A stretch of 64,000 bases of DNA from an uncultured Sutterella sp. (GTDB lineage: Bacteria > Pseudomonadota > Gammaproteobacteria > Burkholderiales > Burkholderiaceae_F): contig CASDQM010000042.1 in NCBI GenBank assembly GCA_949282745.1, forward strand, positions 322-64,321. The letters run 5' to 3'. The first letter of the stretch is position 1. Every line of letters begins with the position of its first letter. This document shows, piece by piece, positions 51,993-63,659 of the stretch. The notes beneath the pieces are model-generated. The model worked only from the letters and a program-made list of their open reading frames with translations, did not search any database and had not been told where the DNA came from. A program made the translations under genes and the position numbers.

Positions 51993-52936
51993 CGGGCTTC
52001 CTCACGAAGTCGGGCGGCGCGAAGGATCAGCCAGGTGGAAAGCGCGGCGATCGCCTGGGCGCTTTCGGAAAAGCGGGCGAGCTGCGTCACGGGTCCGCGC
52101 TGCAGGGCGGACCGGGCGGCGAACTCGTCGAGAGGAATGTTCTGCGGCGCAATGCGGGCGGCAAGTCCCGGCGTCGCGCGCAGGAACTGCATCACGTCAG
52201 TGTGACTTTGCAGGGAGCTCAGCGCCTTGTTGAAGAGAACCACCTCGTTGTGGGCGATGGAGTCTTCAGACAACTTCATCGCCGTGTGGGTGTCGGGTTC
52301 CGCCACGGTGACGACGATGTCCGCCGCGTTGCGCCAACGGCGCGCCGCGTCTCCGTCGGCATGACCGAGGTCGACGACGACGTGCGTGAAGCCCGAGCCG
52401 CAGAGAGCGGCAGGGTCGAACTTGGAGGGAGGGTGCTCGGAATTTCCGTTCCCGTTTTCGTGGATGTCGAGCGCAAGAAAGAGCGGATCCGAATAACGCC
52501 AGAACGTGTCGCGAAACGCATCTTCGGAGGTGGGCGGCGCCGGCAGATTGAAGAGGGCGCAAAAGCCCGAACAATTGCATTGCGGCGCAACGGCGAGCAC
52601 GCGGCTGTCGCGGCGGGAACTTAATTGCCAGGCGGCTGCCGAGGCGACGGTCGAGCTTCCCGCGCCTTCGCGAAGGCTCTGGAAAACAAGTACGATCGGG
52701 CGTTTTTCAACGGAGAGAGGCTTTGCGGAGTGTCCGGCAGTAACGGCGTTTTCGGACGCAGGAGCGCCTCTCCCGCTCAGAAAGGCGAGAAGACCGTATT
52801 GCCGGACAAGCGTCTCCCGCCGGGCTGCATCCCGTGCCGGAATCGAAGACGGGGAAATTGTTGCGGGCGTGCAGGAACGAAGTCGCGAGGCGACAGAATC
52901 ATTCGACGTCATGCTCTCAGGTTCAGCGTTCGACAA
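51986..52936 (-). CDS. bcsQ: BcsQ (MinD/ParA-like) with a ~70-aa N-terminal extension resembling BcsR (putative BcsR-BcsQ fusion); start may be TTG 52936 or ATG 52912
   Basis: VFQSLREGAGSSTVASAAAWQL (deviant Walker A), VVVDL, LFNK, IPLDE and SESAQAIAALSTWL. Overlaps the bcsA start. Confidence 0.85.
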   Translation of the reverse strand: MSNAEPESMTSNDSVASRLRSCTPATISPSSIPARDAARRETLVRQYGLLAFLSGRGAPASENAVTAGHSAKPLSVEKRPIVLVFQSLREGAGSSTVASAAAWQLSSRRDSRVLAVAPQCNCSGFCALFNLPAPPTSEDAFRDTFWRYSDPLFLALDIHENGNGNSEHPPSKFDPAALCGSGFTHVVVDLGHADGDAARRWRNAADIVVTVAEPDTHTAMKLSEDSIAHNEVVLFNKALSSLQSHTDVMQFLRATPGLAARIAPQNIPLDEFAARSALQRGPVTQLARFSESAQAIAALSTWLILRAARLREEARC

Positions 52937-53608
52937 TCAAAGGAAAGGGTGGGTGTGGGGATGCAGTATCGGGAATTATTATTCCATTTTCTTGGAGAAA
53001 AAAGGAATGCGGATAAGCAAAAAGATCCTTACTTGCTGAATGCGTAAGGTGTATTAAGGGTAAACCCGAAGGACAGCATTGATAACACAGAAGCAAGAGT
53101 TGGCGCAAGCGGGCAAGAGGAAAAAGTTTGCCCTCGATTTTCAGGGTTATTGCATCCCTTCTTAAGAGCCGCAGAGAAAAACGAAGAAAAAGAGGGAGAC
53201 GGGACATTGTGAATCCGAGATCCGGTCTTGATCGAATTTCGCCGTTGCGGGTACAGGACCGTTCTGTCCGGGGAACGATGACCAACAGACGAGAACGGCG
53301 GAACAGGAAAAGCCGAGTCCCCGTGAATGTTCATGATTTCAAGATCGGACCGGGAAATGAGAAGTACGACACTTCGTATCGACTGCGCAACTGGGGGAGT
53401 ACGTGCTGTTGGAAACTCTTCTCTTCTCTGTCAGTGTTTCTGAAACCGATACTGAATTCACTCTTCGCGGCTCTTTTCGCCGTCCGTAAGGAGGGGCTGT
53501 CGTTTCACATACTTATGGTTAACCCTTACGTGTTTTGCGGCCTTCGCGAACGCGCCGCCGCCTTCAGCCCGGTGCCACCCCCTCCTCTCTTTCGGAGACC
53601 ACTACGCA

Positions 53609-53977
53609 ATGATGAATCAACCGTTGGAACACACTTTTCACCGTCGCCTGCCCTCCCGCATTCTTTCCCGTGAAATTCGCGAGCAGGCTCTCGAACTCTT
53701 CGAGCAGGGACTCGGTCACAAGACAGTGGCAAAGCGTCTGGCGATTTCACCGCACACGACGCGCGACTGGGGCCGAGCCTTCCGCGAAAACCGCTTTTAC
53801 CCGGCCGTCTCGACGCATCTCTACTGTTATGACGACGATGCCAAATCGACCGTCTGGAGCCTGGCGCTCCAAGGTTTCACCATCAGTGAAATCTCAAAAA
53901 AGACGAACATCAGCCGCAGCACCTGCTACGCCTGGATTCGGGCCCGCCGCGCCAAGACCGCCGGCCGCGCGAGTTGA
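53609..53977 (+). CDS. Small tandem helix-turn-helix protein (IS3 OrfA-like fold), possible regulator
   Basis: Two HTH units, ALELFEQGLGHKTVAKRLAISPHTTRDW and LALQGFTISEISKKTNISRSTCYAW. No integrase ORF follows. Confidence 0.75.
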   Translation: MMNQPLEHTFHRRLPSRILSREIREQALELFEQGLGHKTVAKRLAISPHTTRDWGRAFRENRFYPAVSTHLYCYDDDAKSTVWSLALQGFTISEISKKTNISRSTCYAWIRARRAKTAGRAS

Positions 53978-54293
53978 ACCGTTCGTCCATCCGGATCTTC
54001 TGCTGAAAGTCCAATGCTCACAACTGCTTTCAGACAATCATTCCTGATCTGAAAGTTGGAGTGGGCTCCGGTCAATTCTACGGACAATCGACATTTCTTA
54101 GGCAGTCGAGGGTTGTCTTATTGCGAGAAAACCCTTGTCTTGCTCAGACCTTTTGCGATTGTTTTTTTTTATTGATCGTATATGATTGATCGGCTTCTAC
54201 TAATGAACGTAAACGTCCCGACTTCGTCGGTTATAGAGGCCAATCGGCCTACTGCCGACGGCGTTTCTTCAAATTTATCCATTAGGAATTTTC

Positions 54294-55814
54294 ATGAAAG
54301 TGATCGTACAGGCCGGCGGCCTTGGAACGCGGATGCAAAACATGACCGCGACCAAGCCCAAGGCACTCATTGACGTGCGCAACAAGCCGATTCTCTTCCA
54401 CCTTTTCGACGCGTTCCCTGAAGCGGATTTCGTTGTTGTCGGTGACTATCGATACGAAGTTCTCGACCGTTATTTGACGACCTTCGCTCAGGATCGGCGA
54501 TGCATTCTCGTGAAAGCCGAAGGGAAGGGCAACGCTGCGGGACTCTCTGAAGCGGTCTCCTATGTCGGGGCCGACGAACCCTTCATCATCGTCTGGTCCG
54601 ACCTCATTCTCCCTGAAGGTTTCCGTCTGCCGGAAGCTTTTGAAGGATGTCTGGTGGGCACGGTTCCCTTCCGTTGCTCCTGGAGTTTTTCCGACGGCGC
54701 GTTGCGCAAGGAAGCTTCGGATCAACACGGCGTGGCAGGCTTTTACGCTTTTTCCGACAAGTCGTTCTGTGAAACCCTCCCTTCTGAGGGTTCTTTCACC
54801 ACTTGGCTTTCGATGCAGAACTTTCCCATGGCCGAACTGCCGCTCGTCGGATGTCAGGACGTCGGCACGCTCGAAGCGTACCTGCACCTGGAAAACTCGA
54901 AGTACCGTTGCCGGCCGTACAACCGCATCGAAGTTCTCGAGGAGTCGGTTGTAAAAACCGGTCTGACGAAGGAAGCGCAGGGCTACATTGCCCGCGAAGT
55001 GGATTGGTACAAAGCCGTGCGGGGTTACGGATTTGGTGATGTTCCGCAACTGTTGGAAGAGAACCCGCTGCGTCTGGAGCGCATTCGGGGACAAAATCTG
55101 TTCCTTTGTTCCCTCAACCCCGAGGGAAAGCAGGCGGCTCTTCACCGCATGACTGATGCGCTCGCCCGCCTGCATTCCTACGAAAAGCGTCCGTCCGACA
55201 GCGGGGATCTTTATCGGGAGTATTTCGAAAAGACGCTGACTCGTCTTCGCATGGTGGCCGACGTGGTTCCGTTCGGACATGACCGGACCATTCGCATCAA
55301 CGGCAAAGAATGCCTCAATGTGCTCGCAAACGTGGAGGTCTTCCGACGTGCCGTGCTCGACACCCTGATGCAGACGCATTGCACGCTTTTCCACGGAGAC
55401 TGTCAGCTCACGAACACCCTTGTCAACGAGGAGGGGCGGGTCTTTTTCATCGATCCCCGCGGTTACTTCGGCAAAAGCAAGGTGTTCGGCGATCCCCGCT
55501 ACGACTGGGCCAAAGTGTTTTATGCCGTTAGCGGCAACTTTGACCAGTTCAACGTCAAGAACTTCCGTTTTCACCAGAGCGAAGACGGCGTGGAGTTTCA
55601 GATTGCTTCGGGCGGTTGGGAATTCCTCGCCGACGAACTCTTTCAACGTATTCCGGCGGGAGAAGGCACGCGAAAGGAAATCGAGCTCATTCACGCGATC
55701 GTTTGGATGTCCATGGCGTCCCATGTTTGGGAGGACTACGACTCCATGTGCGTCGCCTTTATGAACGGAATCGCTCTTTTCAACCGCTGGTTGGAGGATT
55801 GGCATGCCGCGTGA
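54294..55814 (+). CDS. Nucleotidyltransferase fused to an APH/choline-kinase-like phosphotransferase
   Basis: N-terminal QAGGLGTRM...KPKAL and WSDL. C-terminal FHGDCQLTN, IDPRG and GDPRYDWAK. Confidence 0.88.
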   Translation: MKVIVQAGGLGTRMQNMTATKPKALIDVRNKPILFHLFDAFPEADFVVVGDYRYEVLDRYLTTFAQDRRCILVKAEGKGNAAGLSEAVSYVGADEPFIIVWSDLILPEGFRLPEAFEGCLVGTVPFRCSWSFSDGALRKEASDQHGVAGFYAFSDKSFCETLPSEGSFTTWLSMQNFPMAELPLVGCQDVGTLEAYLHLENSKYRCRPYNRIEVLEESVVKTGLTKEAQGYIAREVDWYKAVRGYGFGDVPQLLEENPLRLERIRGQNLFLCSLNPEGKQAALHRMTDALARLHSYEKRPSDSGDLYREYFEKTLTRLRMVADVVPFGHDRTIRINGKECLNVLANVEVFRRAVLDTLMQTHCTLFHGDCQLTNTLVNEEGRVFFIDPRGYFGKSKVFGDPRYDWAKVFYAVSGNFDQFNVKNFRFHQSEDGVEFQIASGGWEFLADELFQRIPAGEGTRKEIELIHAIVWMSMASHVWEDYDSMCVAFMNGIALFNRWLEDWHAA

Positions 55815-56181
55815 TCTGCGTCTCTCGCCCCTGAAGCACTCCTGGGTGCTTGATTTTGACGGAACGCTCGTCAAACACAACGGTTACAAGACGGGAGAAG
55901 ACGAATGGCTGCCCGGGGCCGTTGAGTTTCTCCGTTCCATTCCGGAAGGCGATCTCGTCATTCTGCTTACGGCCCGTGAAGAGGGTGCACGCGAGCGCAC
56001 TCTCGAATTTATCAGGGACGCAGGCGTCCGTATTGATCACGTGTTCTTCGAAGTCCCCATGGGAGAACGAATTCTGATCAACGACACCAAGCCGTCCGGC
56101 TTGGTCTGTGCACACGCCGTCACTCCTTCACGCAATCAAGGGCTCGAAAACCTAAACATCGTCATCGACGAAAACCTTTAA
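55804..56181 (+). CDS. Minimal (capless) HAD-superfamily phosphatase
   Basis: Motif I DFDGT, motif II LLTAR and INDT. Overlaps the upstream gene. Confidence 0.8.
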   Translation: MPRDLRLSPLKHSWVLDFDGTLVKHNGYKTGEDEWLPGAVEFLRSIPEGDLVILLTAREEGARERTLEFIRDAGVRIDHVFFEVPMGERILINDTKPSGLVCAHAVTPSRNQGLENLNIVIDENL

Positions 56182-56193
56182 GAAAAAAAAATC

Positions 56194-57096
56194 ATGCAGA
56201 TTCTCCAACCCATCGTTCACGAAACCGTTTGGGGCGGCGCCAAGCTCGCCGCGTTTGTCGAAACGGACTGCCGGAAAATCGGCCACCTTTACGGCGTCAT
56301 CGATACTCCGAAAATGCGCTCGAAGTTTCTCACGGGTCCCTACCTGGGAAGAACCATTCACGATTGGTTCATTGAAAACCGAGATCGTTACGGACTCGGA
56401 AATTTTGAGGAACTTCCCATTCTCACGGCGCTCGTCGAAGCGGCCGACAACCTGTCCATCCAGGTGCATCCGGACGATGAAGCCGCACGCGCGCTGGAAG
56501 GGAAACCGTTCGGCAAGAACGAATCCTTCTATTTGCTCGAGCCTCCGACGACCGGCCGAATGTTCAATGGCGTCAACGTTCAGACGGCCGATGAATTCCG
56601 CAGGCTGATCGAAGACGACCGGGCTCTCGAAGGTGTCGGCACCGTCGAGATCCATGCCGGCGACTACGTCTACGTCACGGGGGGCACGCTTCACGCCGCG
56701 GCCGCCGGTTCCCTTTCGTTTGAAATCGAAGAGAACTGCGACTCGACCTACCGTTTTTACGATTTCGATCGAGTCGACCAGAACGGAAACAAGCGTCCGC
56801 TTCAGGTCGAAAAGGCTCTTGCGTCGCTCAAGCCGGATCTCAAGTCCGCTGTTACTTCTTTTGAACCCAACACTCCACGGCGCGAACGCATGTACGAGCT
56901 CACGCTCGTCAAGTACAAGGACGCGTATGCATGCGAAGGGGACATGTTCGCCTTCATCGTTCTTTTGAGCGGTGAAACCGAGATTGACGGAATGCGCATC
57001 AAACCCGGCACGTCCGTTCTGATGGAACCCGGCGACGTGGTCGCCGTGAAAAATTGCACGGCGATGGTGACCAAACCCATTCCGTACGCATTCTGA
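56194..57096 (+). CDS. Class I phosphomannose-isomerase-like cupin (aldose/ketose phosphate isomerase)
   Basis: VWGG, LSIQVHPDD, KNESFY, GTLHA, EIEEN and TYRFYDFDR. Confidence 0.9.
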   Translation: MQILQPIVHETVWGGAKLAAFVETDCRKIGHLYGVIDTPKMRSKFLTGPYLGRTIHDWFIENRDRYGLGNFEELPILTALVEAADNLSIQVHPDDEAARALEGKPFGKNESFYLLEPPTTGRMFNGVNVQTADEFRRLIEDDRALEGVGTVEIHAGDYVYVTGGTLHAAAAGSLSFEIEENCDSTYRFYDFDRVDQNGNKRPLQVEKALASLKPDLKSAVTSFEPNTPRRERMYELTLVKYKDAYACEGDMFAFIVLLSGETEIDGMRIKPGTSVLMEPGDVVAVKNCTAMVTKPIPYAF

Positions 57097-57108
57097 GGTG
57101 TGTGAATC

Positions 57109-57750
57109 ATGAATCTTTCACCTTCGCTGATGTGCGCGGATCCCGGTCATTTTGCGGAAGAAATTGCTTTTCTCGAAGCCGCCGGCGCCGACAGTTTTCA
57201 CATTGACATCATGGACGGGGAGTTTGTTTCGAACTTTGCTCTTTCCTGGGCGGAGGTCTCGAAATTCTCCTCCATGACCACGCTCCCGTTGGAAGCGCAT
57301 CTGATGGTTCGGAATCTTTCCGTACACATCGGGTTTGCCGCTTCCAGCGGCGTAAAGCTCGTTTATCTGCACGCAGAACACCCTGACGTACTTCGCGGCC
57401 TGCAGCGCGCCCGCGTGCTGGGGTTGAAGGCGGGGCTTGCGGTCAATCCGGAAACGGACGTCGACACCCTTCGGCCTTTCGTCGACATGGTGGACGCCAT
57501 TCTCATGATGCGCGTTCGTCCGGGTTTCGCCGGACAGAGCGCCGTGTCGGACGTTGACGAACGGTTGCCTCTTCTGTGCTCTCTCTTCTCGAACACGCCG
57601 ATCATCGTCGACGGCGCCGTAACGCCTGACACCGTCGCGTCGATGAAGCGAAAGGGGGCCTCCGGATTCGTCCTCGGTACGTCGTCCCTGTTCGGGAAAA
57701 ACGAACCCTACCGCAAGATCATTCACAATCTCCGCACGCTAGCCTCGTAA
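57109..57750 (+). CDS. Ribulose-phosphate 3-epimerase family protein (AlsE/Rpe-like)
   Basis: SPSLMCAD, HIDIMDG, EAHLMV, PGFAGQ, VDG and VLGTSSLF. Confidence 0.9.
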   Translation: MNLSPSLMCADPGHFAEEIAFLEAAGADSFHIDIMDGEFVSNFALSWAEVSKFSSMTTLPLEAHLMVRNLSVHIGFAASSGVKLVYLHAEHPDVLRGLQRARVLGLKAGLAVNPETDVDTLRPFVDMVDAILMMRVRPGFAGQSAVSDVDERLPLLCSLFSNTPIIVDGAVTPDTVASMKRKGASGFVLGTSSLFGKNEPYRKIIHNLRTLAS

Positions 57751-57755
57751 CGACA

Positions 57756-60122
57756 ATGGCCGCTCCGATTTGGACCCGTTTTACGGAAAATTATTTCCGT
57801 TATCCCGTCAATTGCTCTCTCATGGATCAATTCAACCTGACGGCCGATGTTGTCCGTCAGGTCGAAGCTCTTTGCCGAGAAGACGCTTACAACATCGTCG
57901 CATACAAACATTTGGGCGATGTTTTCTATTTCTTAGGCGCAAAGGATGCGCTCGAAAAAACGTTCGGCGGGAAGGTGCACTACATCCTGTTGCCGCAACA
58001 CGAGTTTCTCGCGAAGCTTTGGGGCATCACTGACTACTCGACTTTTCCGCTCGATAAACTCGTCAAAAAAAACAAGGCTTTTGTCAGAGCATTCTTTGAC
58101 AACCGGGCACCGGATCCTTCCGTCTTGGATGCGGAACTTGACAATCTTTATCTTTTGCAGACATTCGGGAACATCCCGCGAAAGAAGAAGCCTTTCGTAT
58201 TGGAAAATCTTGTAAACAAGTTTTCTGAATACCCTTATTACTGGTGTTTTCGTTGGGCGCAGAGCGCCGGCGTGGAAGAGGAATTTCGTTTCACAGCTCC
58301 AAAAGGCGATGTTCCTCTTTCCTCTCACGCCGAAGAGGTTGTTGAAGAACTGGGAGGACTTGATCGCATCATCCTCCTCGCCCCCGAAGCGGCGACCGCG
58401 ACCGAGCTTCCGCCCGAATGGTGGGCTGTCCTCGCTCAAGCCCTCCAAAGCAAGGGCTACCAGCTGCTCGTGAACTCCAAACGCATTCGCATCCCGGGCT
58501 GTCAGTCTGCCTTCGACTTGGATTTGTCGCTCGAAGAAGTTGTTGCAATCGGACTTCGTTGCCGTGCCGTTTTCTCACTAAGAAGTGGTCTGGCGGACGT
58601 GTTGTTGCCCGCAGGACCTCGACTCTTTGTTTTCAATCCCGCGATGCTTCGACGGGAAAGGGGGAGTCTCGACTACCCTTTCGAAGAGCCGACCGGAGTG
58701 AACGAACTGCAGATCTACGGCTGGAACATTTCCGACTGTCGTTTTGAAGACATTGAGATCGGCGATCTACTTCGTCCGTATGTCAAGGCCTGCCGATGGA
58801 AGTTCTACAAGGAACTCTGCTTGAGTCTCTTTCATCATCGTAAAGGTCATCGATTCTGGTACAACGTTTTTCGCGACATTGCCGGTTGGCCCAAGCGGTT
58901 TCCCGACAACAACATCATGAATCCTCCCCCCAAGGAAAAGGAAATGGCACTGGGTCCTCTGTCCGTCTACCACAAGCGCCTGTACAGAAGGAACAACGAC
59001 TTTGTCCTGGAACGCAGTTTTCTCAACGGATTCCTCAAGACGCAACGGCGCGAGGCGGGGAGAAAACTCAAGTTGCTGGGCATTCCGGTCCTCAGCATCA
59101 AGGACAGGGAAAGCAGAACCGTAAGATTTCTCGGGGTACCCGTTTACCGCAAAAGTCGTGCGGAAGAGTTTCGCCGATATTTGTCGAAGCAGATCGCAAT
59201 CGCTTCGGAAGAAGCGTACGGAAAAGGCGAGGTTGCGGATCACGTATTCATCGTCCGCCACAACCTCGGCGAGACGACGCTGTACCTGGCGGAATTTGAG
59301 CGCTGGGCCGAGCAAGTAGGAGCCAAACGTCCGCTCCTCATCGTGTGGCGCCGTCGAGATCTTTCCTTCGTGAAGCTCTTCCTCAACGGAAAACCCTTTG
59401 TGAAGTTCATTCCGATTGCGCAAAGCGACATCAATTGCTTCCTCAAGGAGGAAGTGCAGGAAATCGACGGCATCACGATCCACGCGCCCACGCCCGAAAT
59501 CGCGGAGGCAATGAAGGAAGCCGCGTCGACACAACCTGACGTCAACTTTGCTGACTGGATTCTGCGGAGCATGTCGCTGAAGGAATGGGGGAATCCCAAT
59601 CGACCCGTTCCGACCACCGTCGCGCATAAACGCGCGGCGTGGTTGCTCAATCATGCGGGAGTGAAGAGACCCTTTGTTTTGCTTTGCCCGGAAGCAATCA
59701 GTCTCAAAACAGTGTCCGACGCGTTTTGGTGCGACTTGGCCGAGCATTTCTCCGAAGCGGGGTATGACGTGCTTGTGAATCGATATGCACCGCAGGGGAG
59801 CAGTTCGCTTTTGGAGAGTTTCCCCTCCTGCTCGCCCGACGTGGAAGTGCTTTTCGCCTCGGCTCAAAAGGCGGAACGAATCGTCTCGATGGCTAGCGGC
59901 CTGGGCGTTTTGCTTTCACTCACGGGCAAGCCGGTGGACCTTCTTTATTCCGACGTTCGAAATCGACACATCGGCTACTCGGGAGACATTTGCCGGCGAA
60001 TGTATTCCGTTCACCACATGCCTTGGCCCGAAGTGCGACAAGTCCGCGAACACACCGCCGACAACCTTCAGGCAGTTTTGATCGACATTCAAAATCGAAA
60101 CATTGCGCATACGTCTCAATGA
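57756..60122 (+). CDS. Putative bifunctional glycosyltransferase with two tandem GT9 (heptosyltransferase)-like GT-B modules
   Basis: Internal duplication: KHLGD...LLAPEA...WWAVLAQAL..KGYQLLVN...VFSLRSGLADVL versus HNLGE...LLCPEA...FWCDLAEHF..AGYDVLVN...IVSMASGLGVLL. Linker has LLGIPV/FLGVPV motifs. Confidence 0.6.
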   Translation: MAAPIWTRFTENYFRYPVNCSLMDQFNLTADVVRQVEALCREDAYNIVAYKHLGDVFYFLGAKDALEKTFGGKVHYILLPQHEFLAKLWGITDYSTFPLDKLVKKNKAFVRAFFDNRAPDPSVLDAELDNLYLLQTFGNIPRKKKPFVLENLVNKFSEYPYYWCFRWAQSAGVEEEFRFTAPKGDVPLSSHAEEVVEELGGLDRIILLAPEAATATELPPEWWAVLAQALQSKGYQLLVNSKRIRIPGCQSAFDLDLSLEEVVAIGLRCRAVFSLRSGLADVLLPAGPRLFVFNPAMLRRERGSLDYPFEEPTGVNELQIYGWNISDCRFEDIEIGDLLRPYVKACRWKFYKELCLSLFHHRKGHRFWYNVFRDIAGWPKRFPDNNIMNPPPKEKEMALGPLSVYHKRLYRRNNDFVLERSFLNGFLKTQRREAGRKLKLLGIPVLSIKDRESRTVRFLGVPVYRKSRAEEFRRYLSKQIAIASEEAYGKGEVADHVFIVRHNLGETTLYLAEFERWAEQVGAKRPLLIVWRRRDLSFVKLFLNGKPFVKFIPIAQSDINCFLKEEVQEIDGITIHAPTPEIAEAMKEAASTQPDVNFADWILRSMSLKEWGNPNRPVPTTVAHKRAAWLLNHAGVKRPFVLLCPEAISLKTVSDAFWCDLAEHFSEAGYDVLVNRYAPQGSSSLLESFPSCSPDVEVLFASAQKAERIVSMASGLGVLLSLTGKPVDLLYSDVRNRHIGYSGDICRRMYSVHHMPWPEVRQVREHTADNLQAVLIDIQNRNIAHTSQ

Positions 60123-61864
60123 TTTCCATTTCCTCTCTTTCTGTGTTTCCGCCCGCGCTCGGGCGCCTCGCGCGATATCTGGTACCGCACAAGAGGAAAC
60201 TCTTCTTGGCGGTTGTCTTCATGCTTCTCGCAGCGGCTGCATCGTCTCTCATCGCCCTGCTTCTTGGGAAACTTACGGATTCGGGTTTCTATGACGCGGA
60301 TCCACGGATGGTTCTAGCTGCGCCTGTCGGCCTCATCGTAATTGCCGGCGTGAACGGACTGAGCATGCTCATGAGCAACTATTGCCTCGGCAAGATCAGT
60401 CAGTCGGTGATGATGACCCTGCGCCGCGAGCTCTTCTCGCGGGTTCTGCGTTGGCCTGCCATGACCTACCAGAACAACCCCACCGGTCTCATTGCGTCGA
60501 AGTTCATCAACGAGGCGAATTTCGCACTCTCGAGCGCGGCAAAGTCGGCCATCATCCTCGTTCGCGACTCCGTCCAAACCGTTGCGCTCTTCGTCATCAT
60601 GATCTGGCACAACTGGTTTCTGGCCGTTGCGGCGATTTGCCTTGGTCCCGTCATCGCCAAACTCCTGCGTTGGATTTCGCAGAAGATCAGGTCGGTGATG
60701 TTCTCTAGTCAGCAGAACGTCGCCACGCTCATCACGCGTGTTAAGGAGACCTACGAAGCCGAACGGCTCATCAAGATTTCCGGCACGTATGACAGCGAGA
60801 AGCGGCGGTTCCGTGAGGTGAACGAGCAGATTGCCGACCTGGCGATCCGCATCAACAAGATCTCTTCAATCGGTACGCCTGCAACGCAACTGATCGGAAT
60901 GACGGGGGTGGCGATCGTGCTCGCCATTGCACTGTGGCAGACGCAGCGGGGCATGATCACGCTCGGCGAGTTCGTGACGTTCCTTGCCGCGATGCTTCTC
61001 GTGCTGCAGCCGCTTAAGCGCCTTGCCGGCGTCAACACGGCAATTGCCGGGATGTCGGTCGCGGCCGAAAGCATCTTTCAGACGCTCGACGAGCCGCTCG
61101 AGGCCGATGAGGGGACGATCGAGCTTGAGAACGTCAGGGGCGTCGTCTCGTTCGAGCACGTTTCGCTTCGCTATCCGAACGCGGATCGCGATGCCGTAAG
61201 CGACTTCAACCTTGACGTAAAACCCGGCGAAAGCATCGCGTTGGTCGGCCTTTCCGGCTCCGGGAAGACCTCCGTCGTGAGCATGCTTGCGCGCTTTTGG
61301 AATCCTACTTCAGGCCGCATCCTCATCGACGGCGTGGATGCGCAGAACGTGACGCTTTCTTCGCTGCGCAGACAGATCGCGAGCGTTTCTCAGGACGTCG
61401 TGCTCTTTGACGGAACCATTCGGGAAAACATCGCGTACGCCATGCCGGACGTTTCTGAGGATGCTCTTGCAGAAGTCGTTGATGCGGCAGCCCTTAAGGA
61501 CTTCATCGCTTCGCTCCCTCAAGGACTCGACACCCCGGTGGGTGAGGCAGGCAGTCGTCTCTCGGGAGGTCAGAAACAGCGCATTTCCATCGCGCGCGCC
61601 CTTCTGCGCAACACCCCGATCCTGATCCTCGACGAGGCTACGAGCGCACTCGACAGCGAATCGGAAGCGGCCGTAAAGTCGGCGCTCGACCGCCTGATGG
61701 CAGGCCGAACGACTTTCATCGTCGCGCACCGCCTCTCCACGATCCGTAACGCGTCCCGCATCGTCGTCATGAGTGACGGCGTCATTCAGGAAATCGGCAC
61801 GCACGAAGCCCTGCTCGAAAAGGGCGGCGCCTACGCCAATCTCTCAAAACTTCAGTCGCTTTGA
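60119..61864 (+). CDS. msbA: MsbA-like ABC exporter (TMD-NBD half transporter), copy 1; start re-called at the ATGA overlap
   Basis: TM domain, GLSGSGKT, LSGGQKQR, ILILDEATSALD and AHRLSTI. Confidence 0.85.
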   Translation: MISISSLSVFPPALGRLARYLVPHKRKLFLAVVFMLLAAAASSLIALLLGKLTDSGFYDADPRMVLAAPVGLIVIAGVNGLSMLMSNYCLGKISQSVMMTLRRELFSRVLRWPAMTYQNNPTGLIASKFINEANFALSSAAKSAIILVRDSVQTVALFVIMIWHNWFLAVAAICLGPVIAKLLRWISQKIRSVMFSSQQNVATLITRVKETYEAERLIKISGTYDSEKRRFREVNEQIADLAIRINKISSIGTPATQLIGMTGVAIVLAIALWQTQRGMITLGEFVTFLAAMLLVLQPLKRLAGVNTAIAGMSVAAESIFQTLDEPLEADEGTIELENVRGVVSFEHVSLRYPNADRDAVSDFNLDVKPGESIALVGLSGSGKTSVVSMLARFWNPTSGRILIDGVDAQNVTLSSLRRQIASVSQDVVLFDGTIRENIAYAMPDVSEDALAEVVDAAALKDFIASLPQGLDTPVGEAGSRLSGGQKQRISIARALLRNTPILILDEATSALDSESEAAVKSALDRLMAGRTTFIVAHRLSTIRNASRIVVMSDGVIQEIGTHEALLEKGGAYANLSKLQSL

Positions 61865-61892
61865 CGGTCGACCGTCAGAAAGGAGTTCTCCG

Positions 61893-63659
61893 TTGAACCG
61901 ACTATTCAATCACTTTGATCCGAACCTGATTCGGATTTACCGCTATCTGTTGCCGCACAAGTGGCGCATCGCTTTCGGCGCCGTCTTCATGGCGGGAGCC
62001 GCGAGCATGTCGTCGCTTACCGCAACGCTTCTGGGAAAGCTCACCGATCTCGGCTTCTATCAGCGGGAGCCGTGGGTGATCGCGGCCGCTCCGGCCGCTT
62101 TGATCGGCGTAACGCTTTTATTTGGCGTTTGCACCGTGGCGTCGTCCTGGATCATGGCGAAAGTGAGCCAGGCCGTGCTTATTACCCTTCGCACGGAACT
62201 TTACGACCGGATCATGACGTGGCCGGCAGAGCGCTATCAAAACAACCCGACGGGCGCCATCTGCTCGAAATTTGTCAATGAAGCAAACGTTGCGCTCTCC
62301 GGAGCGACGAGTTCCTTGATCGTTCTGATTCGTGATTCTCTGCAGATCGTCGCGCTCCTCTGCCTTCTTTTCTGGCAGAACTGGAAGCTTACGCTTGTTG
62401 CATTCGTGGTCGGTCCTCTCATCGTCATTACGCTCAAGATGATCGCCAGGCGCATCCGAGTAATCGTGAAGAAGAGTCAGGAAACGGTCGGTCTCATGCT
62501 CTCGCGCGTCCAGGAAGCTTACGAGGCACAGCGCGTCGTGAAGGTTACGGGAAGTTATGCCTTTGAAGAAGCCCGCTTTGAAGAGGTCAACAAGACCATT
62601 CGCCGTACGGCGCTCGACCGAATCAAGATGGAGAGCCTTGCAACTCCCATCACGCAGATGATCACGATGCTCGGCATCGCGTTTGTCGTCGGGGCGGCCT
62701 TGTACGAAGCGCAGGCAGGTCTGCTCACGATCGGTGAATTCATCACTTTTCTCGCAGCACTGCTGCTTCTCAAGCCTGCGTTGCAGCATCTGACCGGTCT
62801 TAACGGCACCTTCGCAAGCATTTCGACTGCTGCGCGCAGTCTATTTGAGGTGCTCGACGCCGAACGGGAAGTCGACAACGGGACCGTGGAAATCGAAAGA
62901 GCCCGAGGCGAAATCGTTTTTGACAACGTATCTCTTACGTATCCCGGGCAGAACGAACCGAGTCTGCGCGGCATCAATCTGACGATTCATGCGGGCGAAC
63001 ACATCGCTCTCGTCGGTCCGTCCGGGTCGGGAAAGACCTCGTTCGTCAACCTGCTGCCCCGCTTCTGGGAGCCCACGGAAGGGGAGATTCGATTGGACGG
63101 CGTGGCGCTCAACGACATCAAACTTGAAAGTCTCCGCCGGCAGATTGCGGTTGTGTCTCAGGACATCTTCCTCTTCGACGATACGATTCGGGGCAACATC
63201 GCATACGGTCTGCCGCATGCCACGGAAGAAGACGTAGCCCGCGCCGTGAAGGCGGCGGCGCTCGATGAATTCGTGGCGACGCTCCCCGAAGGACTCGATA
63301 CGCGCGTGGGAGAAGGAGGCTCGTTGCTTTCCGGCGGTCAAAAACAACGTGTATCCATTGCACGGGCCTTCCTGAAGGACGCGCCAATTCTGATCCTTGA
63401 CGAAGCGACCAGCGCGCTCGACAGCAAAAACGAAATGCTCATCAGGACCGCACTGGAAGAACTCTCGAACGGGCGCACCTGCATCACGATCGCGCACCGT
63501 TTCTCCAACATCGCCAAGGTCGATCGAATCGTCGTGATGGAAAAGGGAACCGTCGTGGAAGAGGGGATGCAGGATGAACTTTTGGCAAGAGACGGGCTTT
63601 ACGCAAAACTCCATCGACTGCAACAAAACGAACCCTCTGACCGCAAAGGAGACGAGTGA
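61893..63659 (+). CDS. msbA: MsbA-like ABC exporter, copy 2; start re-called at TTG after AGGAG
   Basis: GPSGSGKT, LSGGQKQR, ILILDEATSALD and AHRF. Clearly paralogous to copy 1 (SKFINEAN / SKFVNEAN). Confidence 0.85.
   Translation: MNRLFNHFDPNLIRIYRYLLPHKWRIAFGAVFMAGAASMSSLTATLLGKLTDLGFYQREPWVIAAAPAALIGVTLLFGVCTVASSWIMAKVSQAVLITLRTELYDRIMTWPAERYQNNPTGAICSKFVNEANVALSGATSSLIVLIRDSLQIVALLCLLFWQNWKLTLVAFVVGPLIVITLKMIARRIRVIVKKSQETVGLMLSRVQEAYEAQRVVKVTGSYAFEEARFEEVNKTIRRTALDRIKMESLATPITQMITMLGIAFVVGAALYEAQAGLLTIGEFITFLAALLLLKPALQHLTGLNGTFASISTAARSLFEVLDAEREVDNGTVEIERARGEIVFDNVSLTYPGQNEPSLRGINLTIHAGEHIALVGPSGSGKTSFVNLLPRFWEPTEGEIRLDGVALNDIKLESLRRQIAVVSQDIFLFDDTIRGNIAYGLPHATEEDVARAVKAAALDEFVATLPEGLDTRVGEGGSLLSGGQKQRVSIARAFLKDAPILILDEATSALDSKNEMLIRTALEELSNGRTCITIAHRFSNIAKVDRIVVMEKGTVVEEGMQDELLARDGLYAKLHRLQQNEPSDRKGDE

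What the first reader, a model, noticed from the sequence alone, without database searches (positions are those of the whole stretch)
54294..57750. Four-gene cassette that looks like a complete pathway from a ketose phosphate to an unusual NDP-sugar
Seen: tightly coupled genes for a nucleotidyltransferase-APH-kinase fusion, a HAD phosphatase, a PMI-like isomerase and an Rpe/AlsE-like 3-epimerase, all with catalytic motifs intact, directly upstream of a GT9-like protein. Known: heptose pathways use isomerase, anomeric kinase, phosphatase and nucleotidyltransferase (GmhA/HddA/GmhB/HddC); AmgK-MurU is an APH-fold anomeric kinase paired with a nucleotidyltransferase; AlsE interconverts fructose-6-P and allulose-6-P. 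Inference: C3 epimerisation, then isomerisation, 1-phosphorylation, dephosphorylation and activation would give a rare allo/altro hexose (from Fru-6-P) or heptose (from sedoheptulose-7-P). The enzyme folds differ from those of the Gmh pathway.
Basis: partly seen in the sequence, partly recalled or inferred. Interest (0 to 1): 0.72.

Follow-up and report, generated by a model that had tools for sequence, protein, structure and literature searches.

The report
Rare-sugar activation operon in gut Sutterella
A gut bacterium of the Sutterella group carries a horizontally acquired seven-gene operon that most likely converts a central sugar phosphate into a nucleotide-activated rare sugar, attaches it with a heptosyltransferase-like enzyme and exports the product. 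Its core enzymes are distant relatives of a phage UDP-arabinofuranose pathway described in 2025-26, but its two entry enzymes differ, so the sugar is probably a new one.

Summary
Four tightly coupled + strand genes lie at 54294-57750:
- a sugar-1-P nucleotidyltransferase fused to an APH-fold kinase (NTK);
- a 125-aa HAD phosphatase;
- a type I PMI-like cupin;
- an Rpe/AlsE-family 3-epimerase.

All four keep their catalytic residues. They continue into a duplicated GT9-fold transferase and two MsbA-like ABC half-transporters, forming one lower-GC island.

NTK+HAD is conserved in about 80 genomes from about ten phyla, nearly always with this GT9-like family. One NTK clade (59 loci, including the window) always comes with PMI+RPE. 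The other (20 loci) comes with a KdsD-like SIS isomerase.

The SIS type matches the phage pathway published in 2025-26: A5P isomerase, AfhE kinase/uridylyltransferase and AfhF phosphatase give UDP-D-arabinofuranose. The window's NTK is a full-length homologue of it (24% identity, E 2e-34).

The PMI/RPE clade differs from the phage and SIS enzymes at conserved pocket positions. Its epimerase has AlsE's longer hexulose-6-P loop. I infer Fru-6-P to allulose-6-P to altrose/allose-6-P to an NDP-hexose.

This is a new variant of a known kind. The sugar itself is unproven.

The parts
54294..55814 (+). NTK: bifunctional N-terminal sugar-1-phosphate nucleotidyltransferase plus C-terminal APH-fold sugar-phosphate 1-kinase (AfhE-like, PMI/RPE-linked clade P)
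   Evidence: Pfam NTP_transf_3 and APH. AF2 pLDDT 91. Foldseek top hits are MurU, GDP-Man pyrophosphorylase, HddC and RmlA. 24% identity, E 2e-34, full length, to phage Bas46 gp146, annotated 'putative enzyme involved in UDP-arabinose biosynthesis'. Catalytic motifs are invariant in 15 homologues. It sits in clade P of the NTK tree.
55804..56181 (+). Small cap-less HAD phosphatase, inferred to remove the distal (C6 or C5) phosphate of the sugar 1,x-bisphosphate (AfhF/GmhB-like role)
   Evidence: DxDGT motif and other HAD motifs are conserved in 66 loci. Family hits are weak: BT0820-type and HAD-IIIA. It lies next to NTK in 66 of about 80 loci. 48% identical to the phosphatase next to the NTK homologue of cyanophage S-SRM01. 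No BLASTP similarity to the Bas46 phosphatase.
56194..57096 (+). Type I PMI-like cupin aldose-ketose isomerase; entry enzyme 2
   Evidence: PMI_typeI_cat scores 35.8 bits (cut-off 22). manA TIGR00218 scores 65 bits, below its cut-off of 116. PDB 1qwr, E 2.5e-33. QVHP, GKxE and TLHA metal-site residues are conserved in 54 loci. It is found only with clade-P NTKs.
57109..57750 (+). Rpe/AlsE-family ketose-phosphate 3-epimerase paralogue; entry enzyme 1
   Evidence: Ribul_P_3_epim, E 3e-42, but below the rpe cut-off (154.7 vs 212.6) and the AlsE cut-off (149.9 vs 271). The genome has a canonical Rpe elsewhere at 311 bits. It forms its own clade, 100/99 support. AlsE-type phosphate loops, including the one-residue-longer beta8 loop, occur in 48 of the 49 cassette copies; the exception is L013, whose first motif did not align.
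57756..60122 (+). Duplicated GT9-fold (GT-B) glycosyltransferase: two modules joined by a beta-rich linker; presumed user of the NDP-sugar
   Evidence: No Pfam or NCBIfam hit. AF2 pLDDT 83. The Foldseek top 29 are all GT9: 3tov, TibC, WaaF, WaaC. Internal repeat of 28% over 93 aa, E 3e-5. Single- or double-module homologues accompany NTK in about 65 loci.
60119..61864 (+). MsbA-like ABC half-transporter 1; start overlaps the transferase stop (ATGA)
   Evidence: TIGR02203 scores 642.6 bits, ABC_membrane plus ABC_tran. ATGA junction. A third, better-scoring MsbA lies on another contig.
61773..63659 (+). MsbA-like ABC half-transporter 2; the true start may be TTG 61893, which follows GAAAGGAG
   Evidence: TIGR02203 scores 634.4 bits. 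Start candidates are listed. The pair is conserved with the cassette in L002 and L007.
53609..53977 (+). Two-HTH protein resembling a transposase N-terminus, at the upstream edge of the lower-GC island; either an IS remnant or a regulator
   Evidence: HTH_23, HTH_Tnp_1 and HTH_28 hits; IS630/IS1/IS3-type hits all below cut-off. GC is 53-59% for the seven genes against 63% for the neighbouring bcs genes.

Best explanation
The seven genes at 54294-63659 form one horizontally acquired operon. It makes, transfers and exports a rare sugar.

1. The Rpe/AlsE-family paralogue epimerises C3 of a ketose phosphate. Fructose-6-P to D-allulose-6-P is the most likely reaction. (Inferred.)
2. The PMI-like cupin isomerises it to the aldose-6-phosphate. 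By analogy with PMI stereochemistry this would be D-altrose-6-P; D-allose-6-P is the alternative. (Inferred.)
3. The C-terminal APH-fold domain of NTK phosphorylates the anomeric hydroxyl, giving a 1,6-bisphosphate. (By homology to AfhE.)
4. The small HAD phosphatase removes the distal phosphate. (By analogy to AfhF and GmhB.)
5. The N-terminal domain of NTK condenses the sugar-1-P with an NTP, probably UTP, to give the NDP-sugar. (By homology.)
6. The two-module GT9-fold enzyme transfers the sugar onto a lipid-linked or lipid A-core-like acceptor at the cytoplasmic face. (Inferred.)
7. The MsbA-like heterodimer flips or exports the product. (Inferred.)

The system is the PMI/RPE-fed sister of the SIS-fed UDP-D-arabinofuranose pathway of phages.
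For: Architecture and coupling.

Domains and intact catalytic residues.

Homology of the core to a biochemically characterised pathway:
- NTK matches 357 phage records. 340 of them cover at least 80% of its length, including RB69 ORF052/053 and Bas46 gp146.
- Phage loci have the order SIS isomerase, NTK, phosphatase.
- PMC13326640 reports AfhE as an Araf5P 1-kinase plus UDP-Ara pyrophosphorylase, and AfhF as a Mg-dependent phosphatase.

Comparative genomics:
- NTK+HAD+GT9-like is conserved in about 80 loci from Pseudomonadota, Thermodesulfobacteriota, Verrucomicrobiota, Elusimicrobiota, Synergistota, Melainabacteria, Bacillota, Fibrobacterota and Actinomycetota.
- The NTK tree splits into a SIS-linked clade (97/90) and a PMI/RPE-linked clade (100/99), with the phage sequences outside both.

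A different substrate in the window's clade:
- 13 positions are conserved within each clade but differ between them, in the NT sugar half and in the kinase catalytic loop (HGDCQLTN versus HGDxxFSN).
- At 7 of these 13 positions both phage enzymes share the SIS-clade state.

Hexulose-6-P preference of the epimerase:
- 48 of the 49 cassette copies share AlsE's S(L/M)MC, PGxAG(Q/R), DG(A/S/C) and GT-xxLF motifs. GT-xxLF carries the extra beta8-loop residue aligned to AlsE T196-S197-G198.
- From my recollection of Chan et al. 2008 (PMID 18700786), this extra residue elongates the site for hexulose-6-P, and deleting it switches preference to Ru5P.
- A canonical Rpe exists elsewhere in the genome, so the paralogue is not needed for Ru5P/Xu5P.

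Transferase fold.

Extra exporter pair in addition to a housekeeping MsbA.
Against: - There is no biochemical or glycan-composition data for any member of the PMI/RPE clade.
- NTK is only 24% identical to the phage enzyme.
- The window's HAD shows no BLASTP similarity to the Bas46 AfhF-type phosphatase.
- The cassette epimerases are a separate clade, not nested with AlsE. They lack some AlsE-clade marker residues listed in PMC12216980. The loop argument is therefore by analogy, and its key reference could not be retrieved.
- PMI normally handles a 3S ketose (Fru-6-P). That would fit xylulose-5-P better than allulose-6-P.
- The same epimerase clade also occurs next to IspD-like/ADH and LicD genes in other glycan loci, so it is not exclusive to this pathway.
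- Phosphatase and kinase could act in the opposite order, through a free aldose, and give the same product.
- The acceptor and the role of the ABC pair are inferred only from gene adjacency.
Confidence: 0.55

Rival explanations
1. Same pathway logic, but with a pentose. The epimerase converts Ru5P to Xu5P. The PMI-like enzyme converts Xu5P, which shares the 3S,4R configuration of Fru-6-P, to D-lyxose-5-P. NTK and HAD then give NDP-D-lyxofuranose, the C3 epimer of the phage product.
For: The characterised homologue AfhE acts on a pentofuranose-5-P. PMI's natural substrate has the stereochemistry of Xu5P at C3 and C4 (established knowledge). A C3 epimerase plus a different isomerase is the minimal change from the SIS route. 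The same epimerase clade sits beside IspD-like/ADH genes that resemble CDP-pentitol pathways.
Against: A canonical Rpe is already present. The cassette epimerases are a deep, separate clade with AlsE-length or longer beta8 loops rather than Rpe-type loops.
Confidence: 0.17
2. A heptose route. Sedoheptulose-7-P is 3-epimerised and isomerised to a D-glycero-D-altro- or allo-heptose-7-P. This is converted to an NDP-heptose and used by the GT9-like enzyme.
For: The cognate transferase's only good structural relatives are heptosyltransferases. The pathway logic equals GmhA/HddA/GmhB/HddC. Some cassette epimerases, in alphaproteobacterial loci, have a beta8 loop two residues longer than Rpe.
Against: The window's loop has AlsE length, not longer. 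The closest characterised homologue uses a pentose. The genome already has GmhA and four canonical GT9 genes. GT9-like relatives also accompany SIS-type (arabinose-type) cassettes, so the fold does not imply heptose.
Confidence: 0.1
3. It makes the same product as the phages, UDP-D-arabinofuranose. The PMI-like enzyme serves as a non-orthologous arabinose-5-P isomerase, and the epimerase only feeds Ru5P from Xu5P.
For: Core homology to AfhE. D-arabinose-5-P and mannose-6-P share the C2 configuration, so a PMI-type enzyme could in principle make A5P from Ru5P (inference).
Against: The NTK clades partition perfectly by isomerase type. The window's clade departs from the phage and SIS state at 7 conserved positions, including the kinase catalytic loop. 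A dedicated, divergent AlsE-like epimerase would be superfluous.
Confidence: 0.1
4. It is not a sugar-nucleotide pathway. NTK would be a LicCA-like kinase/cytidylyltransferase activating a phospho-alcohol, and the neighbouring genes would be unrelated.
For: LicC (1jyk) appears among weak sequence and fold matches of the NT domain.
Against: There is no Choline_kinase hit in 16 kinase domains; APH and Fructosamin_kin hit instead. NTK co-occurs strictly with sugar-phosphate isomerases and a phosphatase. It is homologous to AfhE.
Confidence: 0.03

Closest known systems
Phage UDP-D-arabinofuranose pathway for arabinosyl-5-hydroxycytosine DNA: SIS arabinose-5-P isomerase, AfhE, AfhF. Found in E. coli phage HY126, with homologues in RB69, Bas46/47 and DLP3. 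Sources: He et al., Nat Chem Biol 2026; Mahler et al., Cell Host Microbe 2025; summarised in PMC13326640.
   Same: The bifunctional enzyme has the same architecture and is homologous over its full length (24% identity, E 2e-34). A small HAD phosphatase is encoded next to it. The logic is the same: aldose-x-P to 1,x-bisphosphate to 1-phosphate to NDP-sugar.
   Different: - The entry enzymes are a PMI-like cupin plus an AlsE-like 3-epimerase, not a SIS A5P isomerase.
- The window's NTK belongs to a separate clade with different residues at conserved pocket positions.
- The HAD is not detectably similar to the Bas46 phosphatase.
- The sugar goes to a GT9-like transferase and an ABC exporter in a cell-surface locus, not onto DNA.
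NDP-D-glycero-D-manno-heptose pathways (GmhA-HddA-GmhB-HddC and GmhA-HldE-GmhB)
   Same: It has the same four-step logic from a ketose phosphate. It uses a HAD phosphatase and an HddC-type nucleotidyltransferase fold (HddC is among the Foldseek hits). The downstream transferase has the GT9 fold.
   Different: The isomerase is a cupin rather than SIS. The kinase is APH-fold rather than GHMP or ribokinase. There is an extra 3-epimerase. No NCBIfam heptose model reaches its cut-off. The canonical heptose genes lie elsewhere in the genome.
AmgK-MurU (MurNAc/GlcNAc anomeric kinase plus MurNAc-1-P uridylyltransferase)
   Same: An APH-fold sugar kinase is paired with a minimal sugar-1-P nucleotidyltransferase. 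MurU is the best structural match of the N-terminal domain.
   Different: AmgK-MurU is a salvage route from a free amino sugar, with no phosphatase, isomerase or epimerase. The MurU models score far below their cut-offs (28.5 vs 250 and 26.6 vs 370).
[quoted passage not shown]
   Same: The catalytic residues are the same. The phosphate-binding loops are AlsE-type, including the longer beta8 loop. AgmD, listed in the PMC8599513 abstract, shows from my own knowledge of that paper that Fru-6-P to allulose-6-P can run anabolically.
   Different: The cassette enzymes form a separate clade from AlsE and score below the AlsE cut-off. Here the enzyme is coupled to an isomerase and an activation module rather than to catabolism or nucleoside synthesis.

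Membership tests
AfhE/AfhF-type NDP-sugar pathway (phage UDP-D-Araf) | Bifunctional protein with an N-terminal sugar-1-P nucleotidyltransferase and a C-terminal APH-fold kinase, homologous over its full length | tested here: met
   BLASTP against Bas46 gp146 gives 24% identity, E 2e-34, collinear over residues 2-502 with shared HGD...N and FIDPRGYFG motifs. 340 phage records cover at least 80% of the query.
AfhE/AfhF-type NDP-sugar pathway (phage UDP-D-Araf) | Small HAD phosphatase encoded next to the bifunctional enzyme | tested here: met
   The HAD gene overlaps the NTK stop by 11 nt. It is 48% identical to the phosphatase next to S-SRM01's NTK. It shows no BLASTP similarity to the Bas46 phosphatase.
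AfhE/AfhF-type NDP-sugar pathway (phage UDP-D-Araf) | SIS (KdsD-like) arabinose-5-P isomerase as the entry enzyme | tested here: not met
   There is no SIS gene in the window's operon or in any of the 59 clade-P loci, which carry PMI-like plus RPE-like genes instead.
AfhE/AfhF-type NDP-sugar pathway (phage UDP-D-Araf) | Same residues as the phage enzymes at conserved substrate-side positions | tested here: not met
   At 7 of the 13 clade-discriminating positions both phage enzymes carry the SIS-clade state (R129, V169, F209, F372, S373, Y416, Y477). The window has S, T, Y, L, T, F, H.
AfhE/AfhF-type NDP-sugar pathway (phage UDP-D-Araf) | Product is UDP-D-arabinofuranose | not testable with these tools
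   This needs enzyme assays with LC-MS or NMR.
Gmh NDP-heptose pathway | GmhA-type SIS isomerase and HddA (GHMP) or HldE (ribokinase-like) kinase | tested here: not met
   The isomerase is a PMI-type cupin and the kinase is APH-fold. GmhA lies on another contig.
Gmh NDP-heptose pathway | GmhB and HddC orthology (NCBIfam cut-offs) | tested here: not met
   HddC model NF049965 scores 27.4 bits against a cut-off of 300. HAD-IIIA scores 18.1 against 44.6. Resemblance is at fold level only.
D-allulose-6-P 3-epimerase (AlsE) | Catalytic His/Asp/His/Asp set and the one-residue-longer beta8 phosphate loop | tested here: met
   H31, D33/D36, H64 and D168 are present. G190-T-S-S-L-F aligns with AlsE G195-T196-S197-G198-L-F, against Rpe's G-S-x-x-F.
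D-allulose-6-P 3-epimerase (AlsE) | Membership of the AlsE clade, or reaching the equivalog score | tested here: not met
   PRK09722 scores 149.9 bits against a cut-off of 271. In the tree the cassette enzymes form their own clade, with AlsE on the Rpe side.
Type I phosphomannose isomerase | PMI catalytic domain with metal-site residues | tested here: met
   PF20511 scores 35.8 bits against a cut-off of 22. Q90, H92, E110 and H167 align with 1qwr and are conserved in 54 homologues.
Type I phosphomannose isomerase | ManA equivalog score (the same function) | tested here: not met
   TIGR00218 scores 65.1 bits against a cut-off of 116.2.
Glycosyltransferase family 9 | Match to the GT9 sequence model (PF01075) | tested here: not met
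   The 788-aa protein has no Pfam hit. A PF01075 scan of the genome finds four other genes but not this one.
Glycosyltransferase family 9 | GT-B fold closest to heptosyltransferases | tested here: met
   The Foldseek top 29 PDB hits are all GT9 (3tov, TibC 4rap/4rb4, WaaF 1psw, WaaC 2gt1, 2h1f, 6dfe), with E down to 1.3e-7.
MsbA lipid A flippase | TIGR02203 equivalog score | tested here: met
   The two genes score 642.6 and 634.4 bits against a cut-off of 602. A third copy scoring 679 bits lies next to a canonical GT9 gene elsewhere, so these two are probably specialised paralogues.

The most novel reading that the evidence does not exclude
The PMI/RPE-linked clade, including this Sutterella operon, makes a nucleotide sugar not yet known in biology. 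The candidate is UDP/NDP-D-altrose, possibly in the furanose form, which is the ring-identical C6 homologue of D-arabinofuranose. NDP-D-allose is the alternative. The route would be a natural Fru-6-P to allulose-6-P to altrose-6-P branch. A new family of GT9-fold transferases would then install it in a surface glycolipid that an MsbA-like heterodimer exports. This would add an unrecognised monosaccharide to the surfaces of many gut commensals.
Probability: 0.35. Interest if true: 0.82.

Novelty: new variant of a known kind. Interest (0 to 1): 0.62.

Why it matters
If the model is right:
- A widespread but uncharacterised pathway puts a rare sugar on the surface of bacteria from about ten phyla. 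Most of them are gut, rumen or termite-gut associated.
- The 2025-26 phage AfhE/AfhF chemistry would be one branch of a much larger cellular enzyme family with at least two substrate classes.
- It would define a new GT9-fold transferase family that uses these donors.
- It would give a concrete, testable source of unknown monosaccharides in commensal LPS and capsules. These are relevant to immune recognition, phage receptors and glycan-degrading enzymes in the gut.
- The SIS-linked sister clade also implies that some Bacillota and Actinomycetota use UDP-D-arabinofuranose for glycans. Bacterial D-arabinofuranosylation has so far been known only from decaprenyl-phospho-arabinose donors.

Tried and rejected
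- Kinase-domain profile (A3) against PDB sequences: only marginal hits (ribulosamine-3-kinase, APH(3')), E about 0.5-2, so no specific kinase family could be assigned. The Foldseek list for the whole NTK model was dominated by the N-terminal domain.
- LicCA-type choline activation: rejected. There are no choline-kinase hits, and NTK is strictly linked to sugar-phosphate enzymes.
- 'SIS and PMI are interchangeable after the epimerase', based on locus L068 (SIS+RPE): abandoned. In L068 the NTK carries the SIS-clade residues and the epimerase sits beside an IspD-like gene, as in another glycan locus.
- Link to Butyrivibrio L-altrose: considered and dropped. The chemistry gives D-series sugars, and no paper connects them.
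- Literature searches for altrose-6-P, NDP-altrose or a described PMI/RPE/NTK cassette found nothing.
- Promoter and terminator scan of 52900-54400 found nothing.
- Chan et al. 2008 and He et al. 2026 are not held. I used the former from memory and the latter through PMC13326640.

Full report
**What is there**

On the + strand the window carries five tightly packed genes:
- NTK, 54294-55814 (506 aa)
- HAD, 55804-56181 (125 aa)
- PMI-like, 56194-57096 (300 aa)
- RPE-like, 57109-57750 (213 aa)
- an unannotated protein, 57756-60122 (788 aa)

Two ABC half-transporters follow, at 60119-61864 and 61773 (or 61893)-63659.

The junctions are an 11-nt overlap, gaps of 12, 12 and 5 nt, and an ATGA overlap, with Shine-Dalgarno-like purine runs. 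The seven genes have 53-59% GC, against 63% for the adjacent, divergently oriented cellulose (bcs) genes. A two-HTH, transposase-like ORF lies at the upstream edge.

A relative at 82% nucleotide identity is labelled 'uncultured Sutterella sp.', so the organism is probably a Sutterella. The island sits in a different chromosomal context in a 69%-identical relative, between ybeY and glyQ. This is consistent with horizontal acquisition.

**Domains and catalytic residues**

NTK:
- It combines an NTP_transf_3/NTP_transferase domain (residues 1-110, extending to about 200 in the model) with an APH-family kinase domain.
- The GGxGxR...K nucleotidyltransferase signature and the kinase motifs HGD...N and IDPRG are invariant in 15 diverse homologues.
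- The AF2 model is confident (pLDDT 91).
- Its best PDB neighbours are MurU, GDP-mannose pyrophosphorylases, HddC and RmlA.

Kinase domain:
- It matches Pfam APH in 16 of 16 members and Fructosamin_kin in 10 of 16. It never matches choline kinase.
- A profile search of PDB sequences gave nothing significant.

HAD protein:
- It has DxDGT and the other HAD motifs, conserved in 66 homologues.

PMI-like protein:
- It aligns to B. subtilis PMI 1qwr (E 2.5e-33) and keeps the QVHP, GKxE and TLHA metal-site residues.
- It scores below the manA equivalog cut-off.

RPE-like protein:
- It keeps the His/Asp/His/Asp set.
- It scores below both the rpe and AlsE cut-offs.
- The genome has a canonical Rpe elsewhere, at 311 bits.

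**The downstream genes belong to the unit**

The 788-aa protein has no family hit. Its model (pLDDT 83) shows two Rossmann-type modules joined by a beta-rich linker. The top 29 PDB fold matches are all GT9 heptosyltransferases: V. parvula 3tov, TibC, WaaF and WaaC. The two halves share a weak repeat (28% over 93 aa, E 3e-5).

Both ABC proteins exceed the MsbA equivalog cut-off. The genome also has a third, higher-scoring MsbA next to a canonical GT9 gene, four PF01075 GT9 genes and a GmhA elsewhere. The window therefore encodes an additional system, not the ordinary inner-core machinery.

**Conservation**

The NTK fusion has at least 1500 full-length relatives at E <= 0.001 among the 8000 candidates scored. 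None carries an informative name.

In 80 species-representative genomes, a census of neighbours gave:

| Gene family | Loci |
|---|---|
| NTK | 78 |
| HAD, usually the next gene | 66 |
| GT9-like family, single (~400 aa) or double (~770 aa) | ~65 |
| PMI-like | 54 |
| RPE-like | 49 |
| MsbA-type ABC | 16 |

Carriers span Sutterellaceae, Oxalobacter, uncultured gut Alphaproteobacteria, Mailhella, Akkermansia, Elusimicrobiota, Synergistaceae, Gastranaerophilales, Selenomonas, Lachnospiraceae and other Clostridia, Fibrobacteria and Solirubrobacterales. The loci are glycan loci: they contain GT2 and GT4 enzymes, pyruvyl transferases and acyltransferases.

In 21 more distant loci a KpsF/KdsD-like SIS isomerase without CBS domains sits directly after NTK, and PMI is absent. 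This SIS protein keeps the GxGK, HGDLG and HPGG motifs.

**Link to a characterised pathway**

A note from an earlier agent of this scan pointed to phage work, which I checked. PMC13326640 summarises He et al. (Nat Chem Biol 2026) and Mahler et al. (Cell Host Microbe 2025):
1. In phages with arabinosyl-5-hydroxycytosine DNA, an A5P isomerase makes arabinofuranose-5-P from Ru5P.
2. AfhE, through its C-terminal kinase domain, phosphorylates it to the 1,5-bisphosphate.
3. The Mg-dependent HAD enzyme AfhF removes the 5-phosphate.
4. AfhE's N-terminal domain makes UDP-arabinofuranose.

The window's NTK hits 357 phage records; 340 of them cover at least 80% of its length. These include RB69 ORF052/053 and Bas46 gp146, which is annotated as involved in UDP-arabinose biosynthesis. 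The pairwise BLASTP result is 24% identity, E 2e-34, collinear from residue 2 to 502.

Bas46 and cyanophage S-SRM01 both show the order SIS, NTK, phosphatase. S-SRM01's pair is closer to the window: 33% for NTK and 48% for HAD.

The SIS-linked bacterial cassettes are most simply UDP-D-Araf pathways.

**Why the window's version probably makes a different sugar**

1. In an NTK tree with the phage enzymes outside, the bacterial sequences split into two clades. One is SIS-linked (20 rows, support 97/90). The other is PMI(+RPE)-linked (59 rows, 100/99) and contains the window. No locus mixes PMI with the SIS-clade NTK.
2. Thirteen positions are at least 90% conserved within each clade but differ between them. 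They lie in the sugar-binding half of the NT domain and in and around the kinase catalytic loop. At seven of them both phage enzymes share the SIS-clade residue (R129, V169, F209, F372, S373, Y416, Y477), where the window's clade has S, T, Y, L, T, F, H.
3. The epimerase is a dedicated, deep-branching paralogue (clade support 100/99) in a genome that already has Rpe.

**Which sugar (inference)**

Forty-eight of the 49 cassette epimerases share AlsE's versions of the phosphate-binding loops; the exception is L013, whose first motif did not align. These are S(L/M)MC, PGxAG(Q/R) rather than PGFGGQ, and DG(A/S/C) rather than DGG. They also share a beta8 loop GT-xxLF that is one residue longer than Rpe's GS-xxF. 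It aligns with AlsE T196-S197-G198. Some alphaproteobacterial copies are two residues longer.

From my recollection of Chan et al. 2008 (PMID 18700786; not retrievable here), that extra residue elongates the site for hexulose-6-P, and its deletion shifts preference to Ru5P. This favours Fru-6-P to D-allulose-6-P.

A PMI-type isomerase (manno-type C2) would then give D-altrose-6-P, whose furanose ring is identical to that of D-arabinofuranose. D-allose-6-P is the alternative.

Counter-arguments:
- PMI's natural substrate has the C3/C4 configuration of xylulose-5-P. That would give D-lyxose-5-P and an NDP-lyxofuranose.
- The characterised homologue uses a pentose.
- The cassette epimerases are not nested with AlsE.
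- The same epimerase clade also occurs beside IspD-like/Zn-ADH genes and LicD genes in other glycan loci.
- A heptose cannot be excluded, given the GT9-like transferase. However, that transferase family also accompanies the arabinose-type cassettes.

My estimates are: hexose about 0.55, pentose (lyxo) 0.17, heptose 0.10, same as phage (Araf) 0.10.

**Fate of the sugar (inference from adjacency)**

In the Sutterella-type islands the only other genes are the GT9-like transferase and the ABC pair. There is no initiating phosphoglycosyl transferase, Wzx or Wzy. This suggests transfer onto a pre-existing lipid acceptor (lipid A-core or a polyprenyl-linked glycan) at the cytoplasmic face, followed by flipping by an MsbA/PglK-like heterodimer.

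In the 82%-identical Sutterella relative, the synthesis genes and the ABC pair are conserved. The double transferase, however, is replaced by a single-module homologue plus an unknown 384-aa protein. This is the kind of transferase swapping seen in serotype-variable loci.

**Novelty and verdict**

I found no paper describing a PMI/RPE-fed NTK cassette, altrose-6-P as a biosynthetic intermediate, or NDP-altrose/allose formation by such a route. No curated family names any of the proteins.

The core chemistry is now known from phages, so this is a new variant of a known kind: a cellular, glycan-directed sister pathway with different entry enzymes and probably a different sugar.

Noticed in passing
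L062-L086 (for example L082:9926-12515): Twenty-one bacterial loci in Clostridia, Bacilli, Lachnospiraceae and Solirubrobacterales have NTK, a KdsD-like SIS isomerase and HAD in the phage (Afh) arrangement, inside glycan loci with GT9-like transferases. This implies UDP-D-arabinofuranose-dependent glycan synthesis in bacteria, where only decaprenyl-phospho-arabinose donors are known.
   Followed up: partly
window 57756-60122 versus L007:13502-15816: In an 82%-identical Sutterella relative the sugar-synthesis genes and the ABC pair are conserved. The double GT9-like gene is replaced by a single-module homologue (387 aa) plus an unknown 384-aa protein of a family seen in 14 loci. This looks like a transferase swap between close strains.
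   Followed up: partly
L089:1811-4012 (contig C42, about 1.6-3.8 kb beyond the window's end): A 734-aa autotransporter (Autotransporter beta-domain, E 1e-47) and two unannotated proteins, one with a signal-peptide-like N-terminus starting at window 63574, follow the ABC genes. TibC-type GT9 enzymes glycosylate autotransporters, but this neighbour is not conserved in relatives.
   Followed up: partly
L100:10121-10879 and L101:2642-3301: Cassette-type RPE-like paralogues also occur away from NTK. One lies between three LicD-family genes and glycosyltransferases in Butyrivibrio proteoclasticus P18. Another lies directly upstream of an IspD-like cytidylyltransferase and a Zn-ADH in a Family XIII MAG. 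This suggests a CDP-alditol route that starts with the same 3-epimerisation.
   Followed up: partly
window 53609-53977: A 122-aa protein with two HTH domains, resembling a transposase N-terminus (IS630/IS1/IS3-type hits below cut-off), lies between the bcs operon and the island. A weak partial homologue lies upstream of NTK in L007.
   Followed up: partly
window 54282-55880 (- strand): A 532-aa antisense ORF spans the whole NTK gene. It has no support and is most likely a by-product of composition. It outcompeted the real gene in a longest-ORF gene call.
   Followed up: no
window 51986-52936 (- strand): The BcsQ-like protein matches the BcsQ model only over its C-terminal 120-130 residues (181-302 of 316). 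Its N-terminal half is unmatched.
   Followed up: no
L001:9894-10445, L046:13294-13812 and 12 other loci: A conserved protein of about 170 aa with no family hit accompanies the single-module GT9-like genes in Bacillota and Actinomycetota loci.
   Followed up: no
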